From the NCBI GenBank assembly GCA_965153285.1, contig OZ229112.1: 64,000 nucleotides of DNA, one strand, 5' to 3'. Numbering within the stretch: position 1 is the stretch's first letter; the number at the start of each line of letters is the position of its first letter. A program made the position numbers. Below are positions 1 through 6,000 of the stretch, piece after piece. This DNA comes from Podarcis tiliguerta. Lineage: Eukaryota.

Positions 1-3000
1 GAACACACTATAACTTTAGATCACATTGAAGCCCTTTAAATCACATTCTTTCCCTCAAAGAATTCTGGGTGCTGTAGTTTTTGCCTCACAGAGTTACAAT
101 TCCCAACAACCCTTAACAAACCTAAGTGCCCAAAATTATAGGAGGGGGGGAATTTGCTTCAACTGTGATTTAATGGTATAGTATTGTGGTTCGAGGACCC
201 GACCCCCGCCCCGTGGAAATGAACACACAAGGACACGTGATATATGGTTTATGGGCATGAAAAGGCCACAACTTTATTGGTTACAGCAGTGAAAAAGGTA
301 TTGGCTTAGGCATTGGATGTCCACCACAGGGGTTGAATCACCAGGGGGCGGAGCCTGTTGATGATAATACAACTATAGGCTCTCCCCTGACGTCACCAGG
401 GGTCGTGCCATGGCCTCCCGCCAAGCAGGCATCGGACGGAATACACGACCCCCAGATTCCTTTAACGGAATACCCAAAATTGAAGGCTTAGGCCGATGGC
501 CACACCTAGCCTTCCCACACACCATAACGCAATAATCCAATGCCTAACCTACCCACCAATACCACAAAAGTTGTGACGATTGCTACGAGGTAGGCGAAAA
601 AACCTCATGGCCTACTGCCATGCGGAAAAACTCCTACCAGGCCCCCCGACTAACCAGGGCGACCAACCTAAGGTCCATAGCAAGGCCAATACCCTAAGCT
701 AAAGGGAGTGGAGGGTGGGTGACTCTCGGCGAGACGGAGTGGAAAGAGGCTGAGGAGAGGGCTGGCGCTGCAATTTGAACTTGGCTGACCACACCCCCCA
801 GCGGCACCCGATTGGGTGCCGGTTGGTGGGAGGAGCGCCAGCCAGGGAACAGAAAGGCAGGGGGCTGAGCCCCCTGCTGTGGGCGGTGCTCAGGCTCCCG
901 TCCACAACCACTCCCCTCTCTTTCAGGGAGGAGAGTCTTTGTGGTTCGAGGACCCGACCCCCGCCCCGTGGAAATGAACACACAAGGACACGTGATATAT
1001 GGTTTATGGGCATGAAAAGGCCACAACTTTATTGGTTACAGCAGTGAAAAAGGTATTGGCTTAGGCATTGGATGTCCACCACAGGGGTTGAATCACCAGG
1101 GGGCGGAGCCTGTTGATGATAATACAACTATAGGCTCTCCCCTGACGTCACCAGGGGTCGTGCCATGGCCTCCCGCCAAGCAGGCATCGGACGGAATACA
1201 CGACCCCCAGATTCCTTTAACGGAATACCCAAAATTGAAGGCTTAGGCCGATGGCCACACCTAGCCTTCCCACACACCATAACGCAATAATCCAATGCCT
1301 AACCGCCACCCGAGCCAAAGGCTCGCCGCCAATACCCTCACAGCTGCAACCAATCCCTGACGCTACTGATGATGCTGTCAAGCCACAGGTCATTCCGCAG
1401 GTCTGAGAGATGAACCCCGTCATCTCTATCCATGTTGCCAATCCGAATACGATCATGCACAATAACTTGGCCATTCCGACAGCGCACCCAACGGGACACG
1501 GCCCGGTTCAAAGTCTTTCTGATTTTCTCCACGGCCATACAACACTTCGCCCCTCGCCACACAATTCTCTTCAGGAGGGAGGACCAAAACACGGTAGTCC
1601 CAGGACACAAGACAGCAATCTCGCCCAAATCAGTTCTTATACTCCATGACAAGTCCGCCGTACTCCTGGTAACGAGGTCATTCTCGCCTAGCTGGACAAT
1701 AAGGATGTCGGGGGGGCCGAACAAGGCCACTTTCTCCCGCAACATAGGCATAAGCTCCTGCCAACGCATGCCCCATTTCATGAACCAGAAACAGCGGACT
1801 CCCGGATGTAGGCCAAGATTAACAGTGAGGTCGGAACTACACGCCCTTGCACGGGCCCAATGGACGATACTGTGGCCGCAAATCCACACGATCTTTTTGG
1901 CAGCAGCTGAGGATGAAAAGAAGAAAGCGACAGGTAAGTGGGGGGGTTAATGTAATGTAATCTAGCGGATATAGGCTTTATATGCATCAGATTTCCACCG
2001 GCCCATCTCCTTAATCCTATCCACCGGCAAGCCCAAATGAGCGGCTGTTGTTGCAGCGCCGATCCGAAAGGAGTGCGCTGCGTAGTCTTGGGCAGGTAAC
2101 CCACAGGAATCCATGGCTCTGCGGAGCACCCTCGTGAATGAAGGCATTGAGGAAATGCGAAATGGGTTTGGGTTCATTATTATGACGGTCGCCAGCTGCA
2201 GTGTGTGCTGGTGCTGCACCCGTGCGCTTCCTCTTGGGCGCCATGAGCTGCTCTGTGCACTAGTAAAATGCACCTACTATTTATTTTGTCACCAATTACA
2301 TTNNNNNNNNNNNNNNNNNNNNNNNNNNNNNNNNNNNNNNNNNNNNNNNNNNNNNNNNNNNNNNNNNNNNNNNNNNNNNNNNNNNNNNNNNNNNNNNNNN
2401 NNNNNNNNNNNNNNNNNNNNNNNNNNNNNNNNNNNNNNNNNNNNNNNNNNNNNNNNNNNNNNNNNNNNNNNNNNNNNNNNNNNNNNNNNNNNNNNNNTTA
2501 TTATTTTATTTTATTATTGTTGTTGTTTTTAATTAGTATTAATATCACCAATCAATTAATAACTTGACTGTAAATAAATGTTAGTAAACAATTATTGGGC
2601 ATCAATAAAGTTCAGAGCACAGTTGATGAATTAACTATTAATCAATAGTATCTCAATTAATAGCCAATGGATTTATAGCTATGAGTAGGAATTACTATTA
2701 TCAATTGCTCCGCGTAAATGCTGACAAAATGAACAATAACCAGCAACCTTGGCATTATCAGCATTATGCTCCAACCAGTTGAGCTATCCAAGCTCTTAAG
2801 TTGCCCCTTTTAAATGATAGGCAAATCTAGGTGCAAAGCAATGCCAAGTAATCAAACAGAATTGAAAATAACTGCTTACAAGGAGATGCTCAGAAGCTGC
2901 AGCCAAAATAAGAGAAAAGGAAATCAATAAGATTCCACACCAGCGGCCCTGCTGGAGAAACTTTATCAAACAAAGGAAACTTTGCCAAACAAAGAAAAGT

Positions 3001-6000
3001 AAATCTTTGCCCACAAGGTCGGCTCAAGACCAGTTGAGGGAAATAAGGGTGATTAAACAGACAAAAGACTGTAATTGGTCAAACTGCTGGTTAGTTAAAC
3101 TGACAATGCAACTAGAGCTGCTGAACTGCCAGGTGCATAAAGACAATGCCTCCCAAAATGCTGGTCACTCAGAGAGCAATCAAGCCTGCCCCAGGAGTTG
3201 AAAAGCCTGTCTGGCAACTGTGATTACTCAGGCAAGAAGCAAAGGAAACTCCAAAGACCAATGTATCTCCTGAAAGGGGAGGGGTGGGGGGAGGGAGGAG
3301 GGGTGGAGGGCGGAGAAGGAAAGTGGGGGGGGGGGGGAGAGTTGGGAGGGAGGAGGGGTGGAGGCAAAATGAACATGCCGGGCAAGGAAAAATCTTTTGA
3401 AGAAAAGGAAAAATAGATGTCCTTACAGTGAGCCGAAATGAAGTGGAAATATAAACCTGGACTTTTCATTAAGGTACCATAAGCCGTAACCTTTGTTGTT
3501 GTTGTTGTTTAAAAGTGGTTTTCTTTAGGGAGCCTGTACTGGCAAGTGAAGCCAATGACAAGAACCAGGCAAAGGCACACCTTCAAAGGTTCTAAACGTA
3601 TAAACGTGCCGTGCTGAGGAATGGTTCCCTGATCAGAAACCCTGAATTGTCCACCCCAAGCCCTGCCTTATTTCTATCCTCCAAACATCAAGCGAAGGGG
3701 GGGGGGGTGGCTTAGAGAAACCAAGAGGGGTGAGGTTTAAGCGTACAGTCTTTCCCAAGCCCCGGCAGCCTTTAAAATTTACAGGGGGCTCCCGATTTAA
3801 GTGGTACCAATGGAAGGGATGGCAAGGTAAATTAAACCCACGCTAGAAGAGTAATAAATCAATAAACGGCAGGCACAAACACACGCTGCAAGCACACACA
3901 CACACACATACACAACTTAAAATTAGAAAGGAACAGGAAAAGGAACCCTGAGGATCATCTAGTCCAACCCAGGCAATGCAGAAATATTCAGCTGTCCCAT
4001 ACAGGGATCAAACTTGCAACCTTGCCATTATCAGCACCATGCAGTCACCCAGACCAGCCACGCAATTGGACAGGCAAGGGCAATAGAGGGGAAATGTACA
4101 AGCACCCTGACCAAAAATTAAAATAAAACGCACAGCTACCAAGCAGAGGCAGGGAAGACAAGCAAGGAGACAAGGGAGAAAGAAAGATGGAGCCACACTC
4201 ACACTCAGACCTCACCGGGGGCATGTGCTGGGCAGGGGAACAAGCTTAAGAAAGGTAATTCACACTTAGACCACACAAACAAATCAAGCACCAGAAGGGG
4301 GGGGGAATGGAAGGTTAAATGTAGGTTTTTACATGGGAAAAAGAGGACACAGCAAGGCAAACCTGGATTTTTAAAAGCAGTAAAGCAATGAGCGCACGCA
4401 AGCCTCCTAAAGTTAAAAGGCAAGCCTCCACACACACAGACCCCCCAACTCCAAACCTCGTGGCTCTTCCCTGTGATGACTGTGATGACTCCTAGCTGAT
4501 GACTCTCGGCGAGACGGAGTGGAAAGAGGCTGAGGAGAGGGCTGGCGCTGCAATTTGAACTTGGCTGACCACACCCCCCAGCGGCACCCGATTGGGTGCC
4601 GGTTGGTGGGAGGAGCGCCAGCCAGGGAACAGAAAGGCAGGGGGCTGAGCCCCCTGCTGTGGGCGGTGCTCAGGCTCCCGTCCACAACCACTCCCCTCTC
4701 TTTCAGGGAGGAGAGTCTTTGTAAACAGCCTATCAGGGCTGGCCCGCCCATGAGGCAAGGTGAGGCAACCACCGCAAGTGGCAGTGCCTGCCCTGCTGCC
4801 TCAAGAGAAGGGGTACTGGCAGCAGTGCTGGTCTCCGGTGAGATCTTGCCAGAAGGCAGCACCACTGCCAGTGTTCTGTGGGCGCTGCTGTACAGCACAG
4901 GTAAGGCAATTTTCAGCGAATGCAAGGGGATATGTGTCAGTTTGCATTTCTTAGTGCAGAAAGTATTGATCTGTACACTTGTTGATTTGCACAGATCAAC
5001 TACAGTGCACACAGGGACAACTGTAGACTTAGATAATAGAATCATAGAATTGGAAGGGACCATGAGGATTATCTAGGCCAACCTGCTGTAATGCAGGAAT
5101 CTTTTTGCCCAAAATGGGGCACGAACCGATGACCCTGAGATTCAGAGTCTCATGCTCTACCGACTGAGCTATCCCTTGAACATTACATGGAAATAAAAGT
5201 ATGAGTGTATAGCTCTGCTATTGTACACACAAATCGTGCATTCATTTTACATGATGCATGAACACTCCCTGTGTGAAACATTGCACCCGTGTTGATTTGC
5301 AAAGATGAGCTGCTGTGCACACAGGTACAATTGTATATTTGTTGACCATTACATGGGAATAACTGTATGAGCATACATCTCAGCTATTGTGCAAAAAAGG
5401 TACACAGATTGTGCACTTATGTTACATAATGTGTGAATACTCCTTGAATGAGCAAGCAATGAGAGGAAACATAATCCCTGCAGAATTTACCCTCTTTCTT
5501 TCTTTGTGATGGGGGGAAGCATGCAGATTGAGTCCACAGGAAGAGGCAAGGAAATGGGCAGTGGCAACAGCAACAAGAGCTACACCCAGAAAAGTGGCAT
5601 GCTGGCAGCAACTTGCCAAAGCCCCCCCCCCCCTCAAAAAAAGAACAAAACTGGAATTGGCACTTGCTATGAATGTCCTTTGCAAGGGTGATATGCCAAG
5701 AGAACAAAACGGGAGTGATGCATGGGAGCAAAGACATACATGGAGAAGAGGCAGGGATACAAAAAGACCAGGGTAGATTTGAGGGCAGTGATGCCTTCAG
5801 GGCAGGACTTAGGGGCAGGTATTTGGGGCCTCATTCAGAAGGATGCACAGGAGAGCCTACAAACACAGCAGTAACAGCAGTTACCTTGTGCAGTAAATAA
5901 AGCAACATTGTATTGTGTATTTATTATATTTATATATCACACTTTCTCCTGGAAGGAGCTCATGGATGTAACTGTGTTCACGGAAAACCCCTGATGGAGA

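What the first reader, a model, noticed from the sequence alone, without database searches (positions are those of the whole stretch)
184..4722. Young non-autonomous Ngaro retroelement that lost RT and recombinase but kept all cis repeats and an intact hydrolase
Seen: both repeat pairs are identical by eye, implying recent insertion. A basic MAPKRKR start is joined out of frame at ~2138 to only the last ~58 codons of the tyrosine recombinase, while the SGNH frame has no stops. The junction lies ~165 bp away from the N-gap, so the gap does not explain it. Known: Ngaro elements have A1..B1A2B2 repeats and gag/RT-RH/YR ORFs, and some carry a hydrolase ORF. Inference: this may belong to a non-autonomous family mobilised in trans whose only functional product is the esterase.
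[Added by the scan's program, not by the reader: the finding's places include an assembly gap (unread letters, written N; its length is only estimated) at 2303 to 2497. Whether the letters on both sides are continuous or in frame is not known: test that first.]
Basis: partly seen in the sequence, partly recalled or inferred. Interest (0 to 1): 0.7.

Follow-up and report, generated by a model that had tools for sequence, protein, structure and literature searches.

The report
Deleted Ngaro retroelement keeping its esterase
A recently inserted, gutted copy of a lizard-type Ngaro jumping gene that kept all its end repeats and an open esterase frame but lost the enzymes it needs to move by itself; it is ordinary in kind, and whether it belongs to a mobile family could not be tested here.

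Summary
On the minus strand, 184-4722 has the Ngaro repeat layout A1 ... B1-A2-(170 nt)-B2. Both repeat pairs are 100% identical (366 nt and 223 nt), and TTGT sits at both ends and at the B1/A2 junction.

Only the 3' end of the coding part is left:
- the last 57-70 codons of the tyrosine recombinase (86% identical to a Podarcis protein);
- a 202-codon open SGNH esterase frame with all catalytic residues.

269 held relatives, three of them RT-bearing, match nowhere else in the 64 kb. The recombinase is cut inside contiguous sequence, so the gap cannot restore autonomy.

Limits on the interpretation:
- The host genome is not searchable here, so "family mobilised in trans" is inferred only from the identical repeats.
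- The 5' 2 kb of the interior is non-coding filler with two old SINE pieces.
- The "MAPKRKR" start has no detectable homologue.
- The esterase frame has no ATG before its catalytic serine. It also lacks the 60-300-residue leader that 65 of 103 relatives carry, so it is probably not expressed the usual way.

Verdict: a defective Ngaro copy, a new member of a known kind, of low to moderate interest.

The parts
184..549 (-). B2, the 3'-terminal copy of the 366-nt repeat
   Evidence: 100% identical to 939-1304.
550..719 (-). 170-nt unique spacer between A2 and B2
   Evidence: Unique in the window. It shows no similarity to the sequence on the inner side of A1: 65 of 300 shuffles reach the observed score. 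GC 53.5%.
720..942 (-). A2, the internal copy of the 223-nt repeat
   Evidence: 100% identical to 4500-4722.
939..1304 (-). B1, the internal copy of the 366-nt repeat; it overlaps A2 by the 4-nt core TTGT (939-942)
1338..1946 (-). SGNH/GDSL esterase frame: 202 open codons plus the stop, ending 33 nt before B1. There is no ATG before the catalytic serine.
   Evidence: for the frame. 31 homologues, best 71% identity, E 2e-80. All S/G/N/D/H motif columns are kept and 42 of 45 conserved columns agree. AF2 model pLDDT 91.3. SGNH fold, TM about 0.7. Best PDB match by profile is 4c1b_A, E 6.3e-7.
1907..1934 (-). Pyrimidine-rich tract ending in AG, 7 codons upstream of the conserved Trp of the esterase core; it looks like a splice acceptor
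   Evidence: Read from the sequence. The relatives' leaders join the core at the same relative position: P0140 departs from P0042 after residue 207 and its core motif starts at 214. No splice predictor was available, so this is an inference.
1962..2174 (-). Tyrosine recombinase remnant (broken gene): C-terminal 57-70 codons plus the stop
   Evidence: PF00589 matches profile positions 109-160 of 172. 97 hits, best 86% identity, covering 55-69% of the 103-codon ORF. It lies in the same frame as the esterase, separated from it by two stops.
2017..2244 (-). 75-codon ORF starting MAPKRKR, in a different frame from the recombinase remnant that it overlaps
   Evidence: No Pfam family. No homologue.
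2245..2302 (.). AT-rich 58 nt between the basic ORF and the gap
   Evidence: GC 36%. No protein homology.
2303..2497 (.). Assembly gap (195 N, true length unknown); left unread
2498..4499 (.). Non-coding interior ('filler'): an AT-rich low-complexity start, microsatellites, and two SINE pieces at 2738-2783 and 3940-4042
   Evidence: 27-37 stops in each of the six frames; longest open stretch 109 codons. No tblastn hit better than E 0.094 from 269 relatives. The SINE pieces are 87% like 46304-46421. Tandem repeats.
4500..4722 (-). A1, the 5'-terminal copy of the 223-nt repeat
   Evidence: 100% identical to 720-942. It ends in TTGT at 4719-4722.

Best explanation
This is an internally deleted, non-autonomous copy of a squamate Ngaro element (a tyrosine-recombinase retrotransposon of the DIRS order), on the minus strand at 184-4722.

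Shown:
- The full set of split direct repeats, A1 ... B1-A2-(170 nt)-B2, with each pair identical.
- A TTGT core at both ends and at the B1/A2 junction. This is the signature expected when a circular copy is inserted by a site-specific recombinase.
- Only the 3' end of the coding region survives: the recombinase tail and the complete esterase core.
- No RT/RNase H and no recognisable leader or gag in the visible sequence.
- The 5' 2.2 kb of the interior is non-coding filler plus the gap.

Inferred:
- Because the repeats are identical, the copy most likely arrived already in this deleted form. It would then have been reverse-transcribed and inserted by enzymes from autonomous relatives, using its intact cis repeats.
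- The esterase frame is a passenger inherited from the source copy. It is open and catalytically complete. It has lost the leader and start codon through which relatives appear to express it, so it is probably not produced by the usual route.
For: - Repeat anatomy and identity. TTGT at 184-187, 939-942 and 4719-4722. This matches the model in which a short core at the circle junction ends up at both ends of the insertion (PMC7192593 passages).
- The order 'recombinase, then SGNH ORF, then repeats' is the described vertebrate Ngaro order (PMC9210276 passages).
- Recombinase tail: 97 hits, best 86% identity, never more than 69% of the ORF covered.
- Relatives belong to RT-bearing elements: P0043 has RVT_1 (E 7e-12) together with the recombinase.
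- All 291 significant tblastn HSPs from 269 relatives fall in 1170-2252 on the minus strand. No hit in 2498-4499 is better than E 0.094.
- Esterase.
- Leader architecture in relatives: 65 of 103 single-core proteins have more than 60 residues before the core. P0042 (recombinase model) and P0140 (esterase model) share an identical 207-residue prefix.
- Youth: 0 differences in about 585 compared repeat positions. At an assumed 1-2.5e-9 substitutions per site per year (a recalled rate), this means under roughly 1-2.6 million years.
- AT-rich sequence on both sides of the gap suggests one low-complexity tract, not a hidden gene.
Against: - No second copy could be examined. There is none in the window and none of 4 exact ORFs is in the protein collection. 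Transposition of the deleted form therefore rests on parsimony alone.
- The gap lies inside the element and its true length is unknown.
- The 2-kb filler with two degraded SINE pieces looks like ordinary host DNA. That is odd inside an element with perfect repeats and could point to a local rearrangement or a wrong scaffold join.
- The 170-nt spacer between A2 and B2 is not part of the textbook layout.
- The MAPKRKR ORF may be a chance ORF: 41 ORFs of at least 50 codons lie in the first 6 kb.
Confidence: 0.5

Rival explanations
1. A full-length Ngaro inserted here recently and was then rearranged at this locus. An internal deletion removed gag/leader, RT/RNase H and most of the recombinase, and host-like DNA was gained as filler. 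The structure would be unique and never transposed in this form.
For: The filler 2498-4499 looks like ordinary intergenic DNA with two partial SINE pieces and microsatellites. No other copy with this structure was seen.
Against: It needs at least two large events within the short time allowed by 0 differences in about 585 repeat positions. Both element ends and the B1/A2 junction are untouched.
Confidence: 0.22
2. Assembly artefact. The scaffold join across 2303-2497 links two contigs that are not adjacent, or the gap is much longer than written. In that case 'one element of 4.5 kb' would be a construct made from a 3' Ngaro part and a separate A-repeat-bearing stretch.
For: The gap lies exactly between the coding remnant and the filler. 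High-copy repeats mislead scaffolders (general knowledge). A1 sits 2 kb inside the right-hand contig, next to host-like sequence.
Against: A1 has the orientation, position and exact terminal TTGT expected for the 5' end of the same element. Both gap flanks are AT-rich (36% and 13% GC against 52-64% in the Ngaro-derived parts), as if a single low-complexity tract had broken the assembly. Whatever the gap holds, the loss of the recombinase lies within contiguous sequence.
Confidence: 0.15
3. The deleted form descends from a reverse-transcribed spliced (subgenomic) RNA of a full-length element, so the missing genes were removed as an intron.
For: Relatives' gene models join one leader either to the recombinase or to the esterase. 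P0042 and P0140 share an identical 207-residue prefix. P0038 and P0139 share a leader piece at 59% identity, E 7e-13. An acceptor-like tract lies before the esterase core in the window.
Against: In the window the discontinuity leads into the recombinase tail, out of frame. That is not either of the two joining positions seen in relatives, which lie before the recombinase N-terminal domain or about 7 codons before the esterase Trp. The relatives' joins are known only from predicted proteins. Their source records and exon structures could not be retrieved.
Confidence: 0.08
4. The esterase is the selected payload: a hydrolase-only Ngaro lineage (or a gene being domesticated) whose one working product is the SGNH enzyme.
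For: The frame is open for 202 codons with all catalytic residues, and 42 of 45 conserved columns agree. The model is confident and has the SGNH fold. Many stand-alone esterase proteins are predicted in lacertid genomes.
Against: There is no ATG before the catalytic serine. The leader present in 65 of 103 relatives is absent. One column invariant in 26 of 26 relatives is changed, and there is one 2-residue gap relative to them. An open frame in a copy this young carries no information about selection.
Confidence: 0.12

Closest known systems
Vertebrate Ngaro elements with a fourth, SGNH-hydrolase ORF (for example Xenopus tropicalis DIRS-53_XT; PMC9210276, passages read)
   Same: Split direct repeats A1 ... 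B1-A2-B2 with 100% identical pairs; the Xenopus A repeat is 236 bp against 223 bp here. The recombinase is followed by an SGNH ORF at the 3' end. The function of the hydrolase is unproven.
   Different: The window copy has no gag-like ORF, no RT/RNase H and only the recombinase tail. Its B repeat is 366 nt against 152 bp in Xenopus. A 170-nt unique spacer separates A2 from B2. The interior holds 2 kb of non-coding filler. The esterase frame lies in the recombinase frame, separated from it by stops, whereas the Xenopus ORFs are described as overlapping.
Known non-autonomous tyrosine-recombinase retroelements: SIRE of VIPER in Trypanosoma cruzi (PMC6681497, passages) and TOC1 of Chlamydomonas (PMC9940879, passage)
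   Same: They are derivatives of recombinase-bearing retroelements that keep terminal repeat structures and lack the enzymes. SIRE also has a short 'exclusive' stretch between its A2 and B2 parts.
   Different: Those are established multi-copy families, whereas here only one copy is seen. Neither is reported in the passages read to keep an accessory enzyme ORF.
TelKA2n of bdelloid rotifers (PMC5408684, passage)
   Same: [quoted passage not shown] This is the closest analogue to 'only the accessory ORF is kept'.
   Different: It is an LTR retrotransposon, its retained ORF is env-like and not an esterase, and its host is a rotifer.
Esterase domain of ZfL2-1 ORF1p, PDB 4C1B (PMC3905857, passages)
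   Same: It is the best solved-structure match by sequence profile (E 6.3e-7). It has the same SGNH fold (rank 33) and is also carried by a retrotransposon. It was shown to be hydrolytic and to bind acidic phospholipids, and a membrane-targeting role was proposed.
   Different: It belongs to a LINE, where it lies in ORF1 beside a coiled coil. It is 20% identical to the model in the fold alignment. The window protein's activity and lipid binding are untested.

Membership tests
Ngaro (DIRS-order tyrosine-recombinase retrotransposons) | Split direct repeats: A1 at the 5' end, then B1, A2 and B2 at the 3' end, with A1 = A2 and B1 = B2 | tested here: met
   A is 223 nt and B is 366 nt, both pairs 100% identical. 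One deviation: a 170-nt spacer between A2 and B2.
Ngaro (DIRS-order tyrosine-recombinase retrotransposons) | Encodes a tyrosine recombinase | tested here: not met
   Only the C-terminal 57-70 codons remain. That is enough to show descent from the family, but it is not a working gene.
Ngaro (DIRS-order tyrosine-recombinase retrotransposons) | Encodes reverse transcriptase / RNase H | tested here: not met
   269 relatives were compared, including the RT-bearing P0037, P0043 and P0094. They gave 0 significant HSPs outside 1170-2252. The 195-N gap is unread.
Ngaro (DIRS-order tyrosine-recombinase retrotransposons) | gag-like first ORF | tested here: inconclusive
   The only candidate is the 75-codon MAPKRKR ORF, which has no homologue. 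4 of 269 held relatives start with MAP followed by K or R. That is suggestive only.
Ngaro (DIRS-order tyrosine-recombinase retrotransposons) | Short identical core at both termini and at the internal repeat junction, with no target-site duplication (criterion taken from the DIRS literature, PMC7192593; its use for Ngaro is from recall) | tested here: met
   TTGT at 184-187, 939-942 and 4719-4722. The flanks are unrelated: 273 of 300 shuffles reach the observed score.
Vertebrate Ngaro subgroup with a hydrolase ORF | SGNH hydrolase ORF downstream of the recombinase | tested here: met
Non-autonomous retroelement family (TOC1- or SIRE-like status) | Several copies with the same internal structure at different loci | not testable with these tools
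   No eukaryotic genome collection is on hand. There is no other copy in the window. Exact look-up found 0 of 4 ORFs.
Non-autonomous retroelement family (TOC1- or SIRE-like status) | Keeps the cis-acting terminal structures of the autonomous partner | tested here: met
   All four repeat copies and the B1/A2 junction are intact. No autonomous partner from the same genome was available for comparison.
SGNH/GDSL hydrolases | Conserved blocks with catalytic Ser, Gly, Asn and Asp/His | tested here: met
   The window residue equals the family residue at all 9 motif columns checked, each shared by 24-26 of 26 relatives. The Pfam PF13472 hit is below its cut-off (15.3 against 32.9 bits), as it is for most of the relatives scanned.
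SGNH/GDSL hydrolases | Three-layer alpha/beta/alpha fold | tested here: met
   AF2 model pLDDT 91.3, pTM 0.86. Foldseek against the PDB gave 137 matches at E <= 1e-3; the top ones are GDSL acylhydrolases at TM 0.71-0.72.
SGNH/GDSL hydrolases | Esterase activity | not testable with these tools

The most novel reading that the evidence does not exclude
Lizard Ngaro elements may make both their recombinase and their esterase as fusions to one shared leader ORF, through one donor and alternative acceptors. That would be a retrovirus-like subgenomic strategy. It was not seen in the listings of five literature searches. The window copy would then belong to an esterase-retaining, trans-mobilised lineage that kept the esterase exon and its acceptor. 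Basis: the identical 207-residue prefix of P0042 and P0140, a second leader pair (P0038/P0139), leader-plus-esterase architecture conserved across models only 43-58% identical, and the acceptor-like tract at the matching position in the window.
Probability: 0.15. Interest if true: 0.6.

Novelty: new member of a known kind. Interest (0 to 1): 0.28.

Why it matters
As it stands, this is one more defective copy of a known retroelement class in a squamate genome. It is useful mainly for annotation: the esterase frame should not be called a host gene.

It would matter more if genome-wide data showed a family of such copies. Non-autonomous Ngaro derivatives that keep the accessory esterase would bear on what that long-unexplained enzyme does for the element.

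The side observation may be more interesting than this locus. Relatives' predicted proteins join one leader to either the recombinase or the esterase, which hints at how these elements express their 3' ORFs.

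Tried and rejected
1. Looked for RT, RNase H, the recombinase N-terminus or a leader elsewhere in the element and window by tblastn. 128 and then 269 relatives were used; nothing was found outside 1170-2252.
2. 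Searched for homologues of the MAPKRKR ORF. There were 0 among longer proteins out of 88 candidates. The best local E was 0.47-0.72. P0158's N-terminus gave E 0.45. 'Gag start' is therefore unproven. I also rejected the idea that it is the esterase ORF's own start overlapping the recombinase, because the DNA around it encodes no recombinase in any frame.
3. Tested whether the 170-nt spacer is a decayed continuation of A or B. Against the inner side of A1 it is not significant (65 of 300 shuffles reach the score). Against the inner side of B1 it is borderline (9 of 300).
4. Exact look-up of four window ORFs as a proxy for copy number: 0 of 4 found.
5. Names and sources for P0140, P0139 and others could not be fetched (database off). 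It is therefore unconfirmed that P0042 and P0140 are isoforms of one locus.
6. Rfam found only a tRNA-like SINE head outside the element and one sub-threshold chance hit.
7. A viral fold search gave only generic phage SGNH tail domains.
8. Goodwin & Poulter 2004 is not held, so its content is cited only through other papers.
9. dN/dS could not be computed because no DNA of relatives was available.
10. The exons were searched one by one. The joined step of a splice model was left out.
11. The window is not taken for human. The best named matches are lacertid and agamid lizard proteins.

Full report
**1. What is there**

The window has one N run, 2303-2497. Two repeat pairs are exact:
- 184-549 = 939-1304 (366 nt);
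- 720-942 = 4500-4722 (223 nt).

Apart from these, a self-comparison of 184-4722 with the whole 64 kb finds only two short SINE matches. Read on the minus strand, where all the coding remnants lie, the order is:
- A1 (4722..4500);
- the interior;
- B1 (1304..939);
- A2 (942..720);
- a 170-nt unique spacer (719..550);
- B2 (549..184).

This is the split-direct-repeat layout that defines Ngaro elements (PMC9210276 and PMC6681497, passages). The four bases TTGT are shared by B1 and A2 at their junction and are also the first and last four bases of the element. The flanks are unrelated to each other (273 of 300 shuffles reach the score), so there is no target duplication. For DIRS elements a short core at the circle junction is thought to recombine with the same core in the target and so to end up at both ends (PMC7192593, passages). 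The anatomy here fits that model.

**2. Coding remnants (minus strand, each frame read as it stands)**

(a) Esterase.
- The frame 1946..1341 is open for 202 codons and stops 33 nt before B1.
- It has 31 homologues at E <= 1e-3 among 246 candidates, the best at 71% identity. 19 are named, all from lacertid lizards or Phrynocephalus; 12 are unnamed.
- In an alignment with 26 relatives, all 9 motif columns checked (Ser, Gly, Asn, Asp, His blocks) are kept and 42 of 45 strongly conserved columns agree. One column invariant in 26 of 26 relatives is changed, and there is one 2-residue gap.
- The AF2 model is confident (pLDDT 91.3) and has the SGNH fold (137 PDB matches at E <= 1e-3, top TM 0.71-0.72).
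- By sequence profile the best solved relative is the esterase of the zebrafish ZfL2-1 retrotransposon ORF1p (4c1b_A, E 6.3e-7).
- The family is large: 3590 representatives at E <= 1e-3, 1759 at <= 1e-10 and 573 at <= 1e-30.

(b) Recombinase.
- ORF 2273..1962 ends in a recombinase C-terminus. It has 97 hits among 156 candidates, the best being a Podarcis 'integrase/recombinase xerD homolog' at 86% identity. None covers more than 69% of the 103 codons.
- Relatives are 270-430 residues or longer, so about four fifths of the gene is missing.
- The retained tail has no stop or frameshift.
- Pfam scores for it are sub-threshold, but so are those of full-length relatives (17-20 bits against a cut-off of 27.1).

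(c) Basic ORF.
- A 75-codon ORF at 2244..2017 starts with MAPKRKR, in a different frame, and overlaps the recombinase tail.

**3. Count of breaks**
- RT/RNase H: wholly absent from the visible sequence.
- Recombinase: one N-terminal truncation, no other defect in the part kept.
- Leader or gag: absent or reduced to a short start, if the basic ORF is that start at all.
- Esterase: 0 stops and 0 frameshifts, but no ATG upstream of the catalytic serine.
- The recombinase tail and the esterase lie in the same frame, separated by two stops.

**4. The gap**

Recombinase homology ends within contiguous sequence left of the gap, so no content of the gap can make the recombinase whole. If the basic ORF is the element's first ORF, RT would have to lie downstream of it, where only the recombinase tail follows. 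The 58 nt left of the gap (GC 36%) and the 63 nt right of it (GC 13%) are both AT-rich and carry no protein homology, against 52-64% GC in the Ngaro-derived parts. This looks like one low-complexity tract that broke the assembly. That is weak evidence, and continuity was not testable.

**5. The rest of the interior**

The stretch 2498-4499 has 27-37 stops in every frame and a longest open stretch of 109 codons. It contains microsatellites and two pieces (2738-2783 and 3940-4042) of a tRNA-derived SINE. That SINE also occurs just outside the element (about 5040-5172; Rfam tRNA hit at 5113-5172) and at 46304-46421. No relative matches this stretch better than E 0.094. It looks like ordinary host DNA. 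How it came to lie between A1 and the coding remnant is unexplained.

**6. How the esterase is expressed in relatives**

- Of 103 held esterase-family proteins with one core and at most 700 residues (out of 172 held from the two esterase searches), 65 have more than 60 residues before the core.
- P0042 (recombinase model, named 'isoform X1', Zootoca vivipara) and P0140 (esterase model) share an identical prefix of 207 residues and then diverge, one into the recombinase and the other into the esterase.
- P0038 and P0139 share a leader piece in the same way (59% over 79 residues, E 7e-13).
- The leader-plus-esterase architecture is kept between models only 43-58% identical. The three such leaders scanned (P0136, P0137, P0140) have no Pfam domain.
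- P0140 leaves the shared prefix 7 residues before the conserved Trp of the core. In the window, a pyrimidine-rich tract ending in AG lies at 1934..1907, also 7 codons before that Trp.

I infer that in this family the esterase core is an exon joined to an upstream leader. The alternative is that leader-esterase deletion derivatives exist. Either way, the window copy has the core and its acceptor-like site but no leader.

This rests on predicted proteins. Their source records and exon structures could not be retrieved. No splice predictor was on hand. I searched the pieces separately and left the joined step out.

**7. The MAPKRKR start**

4 of 269 held relatives begin with MAP followed by K or R: P0042 and P0140 (same leader), P0136 and P0158. 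That makes a family-typical start plausible. The ORF itself has no significant match:
- 0 of 88 candidates;
- best E 0.47-0.72;
- E 0.45 to P0158.

ORFs of this size are also common by chance: 41 of at least 50 codons lie in the first 6 kb.

**8. Mechanism and verdict**

Shown: a Ngaro-derived insertion with complete cis repeats, precise ends and no capacity for autonomous movement.

Inferred:
- Identical repeats (0 differences in about 585 positions) mean a recent insertion, under about 1-2.6 million years at an assumed 1-2.5e-9 substitutions per site per year (recalled rate).
- It is more economical that the copy arrived already deleted, made and inserted by enzymes of autonomous relatives, than that it suffered a multi-kb deletion and gained 2 kb of filler afterwards.

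The rivals remain open: a local rearrangement, a scaffolding artefact, and origin from a spliced RNA. The last is disfavoured because the discontinuity does not fall at either joining position seen in relatives.

The claim that the esterase is the one functional product is not supported beyond 'open and catalytically complete'.

**9. Comparison and novelty**

- Non-autonomous recombinase retroelements are known: SIRE (PMC6681497) and TOC1 (PMC9940879).
- A non-autonomous family that keeps only its accessory 3' ORF is known among LTR elements: TelKA2n (PMC5408684).
- Retroelement SGNH esterases have been tied to lipid and membrane binding in LINEs (PMC3905857).
[quoted passage not shown] This is in keeping with all named matches coming from squamates. 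I did not try to identify the record, and it is not taken for human.

The literature searches were:
- Ngaro + hydrolase, 38 papers;
- Ngaro + non-autonomous, 26 papers;
- Ngaro + lizard, 15 papers;
- Ngaro + splic, 97 papers, 15 listed;
- four terms, 8 papers.

Their listings showed no esterase-retaining non-autonomous Ngaro and no leader splicing. I read only listings, abstract starts and the cited passages. No supplements were opened, and Goodwin & Poulter 2004 is not held.

On present evidence this is a new member of a known kind.

Noticed in passing
window 5040-5172, 46304-46421, 2738-2783 and 3940-4042: Four copies or pieces of one tRNA-derived SINE family. The Rfam tRNA hit is at 5113-5172 on the minus strand (37.7 bits). 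Two of the pieces lie inside the Ngaro interior. The three in the first 5.2 kb share one orientation.
   Followed up: partly
window 550-719: A 170-nt unique spacer lies between A2 and B2, where the textbook Ngaro layout draws the repeats as adjacent. SIRE/VIPER has a roughly 30-bp analogue. Its similarity to the inner side of B1 is borderline (9 of 300 shuffles reach the score).
   Followed up: partly
relatives P0042 and P0140 (also P0038 and P0139): A recombinase model and an esterase model share an identical 207-residue N-terminal leader and then diverge. This suggests alternative acceptors, or deletion derivatives, in lacertid Ngaro elements. Their source records could not be retrieved.
   Followed up: partly
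relatives P0155, P0198, P0202, P0205 and others: 32 long representatives (794-3112 aa) of the same esterase family were scanned. 15 carry cold-shock (CSD/CSDE1) domains, and 0 of 32 have an RT or recombinase Pfam hit. This is a different and unexplained context for this esterase.
   Followed up: partly
window 20468-21079 (-): A 203-codon ORF with the C-terminal end of a reverse-transcriptase domain (RVT_1, E 0.0027, below cut-off). It is probably a LINE fragment unrelated to the Ngaro copy.
   Followed up: partly
window 42151-42564 (-): An ORF matching ribosomal protein S6e (PF01092, E 6e-13, profile positions 84-125 of 125). It looks like a processed pseudogene.
   Followed up: partly
window 50000-51250: A GC-rich island (up to 68% GC) with long overlapping ORFs on both strands and no Pfam match. 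It may be a CpG-island promoter region.
   Followed up: no
window 1-183: The left flank of the element (GC 38%) reads like another interspersed repeat, so the element may have inserted into older repeat DNA. This was not tested.
   Followed up: no
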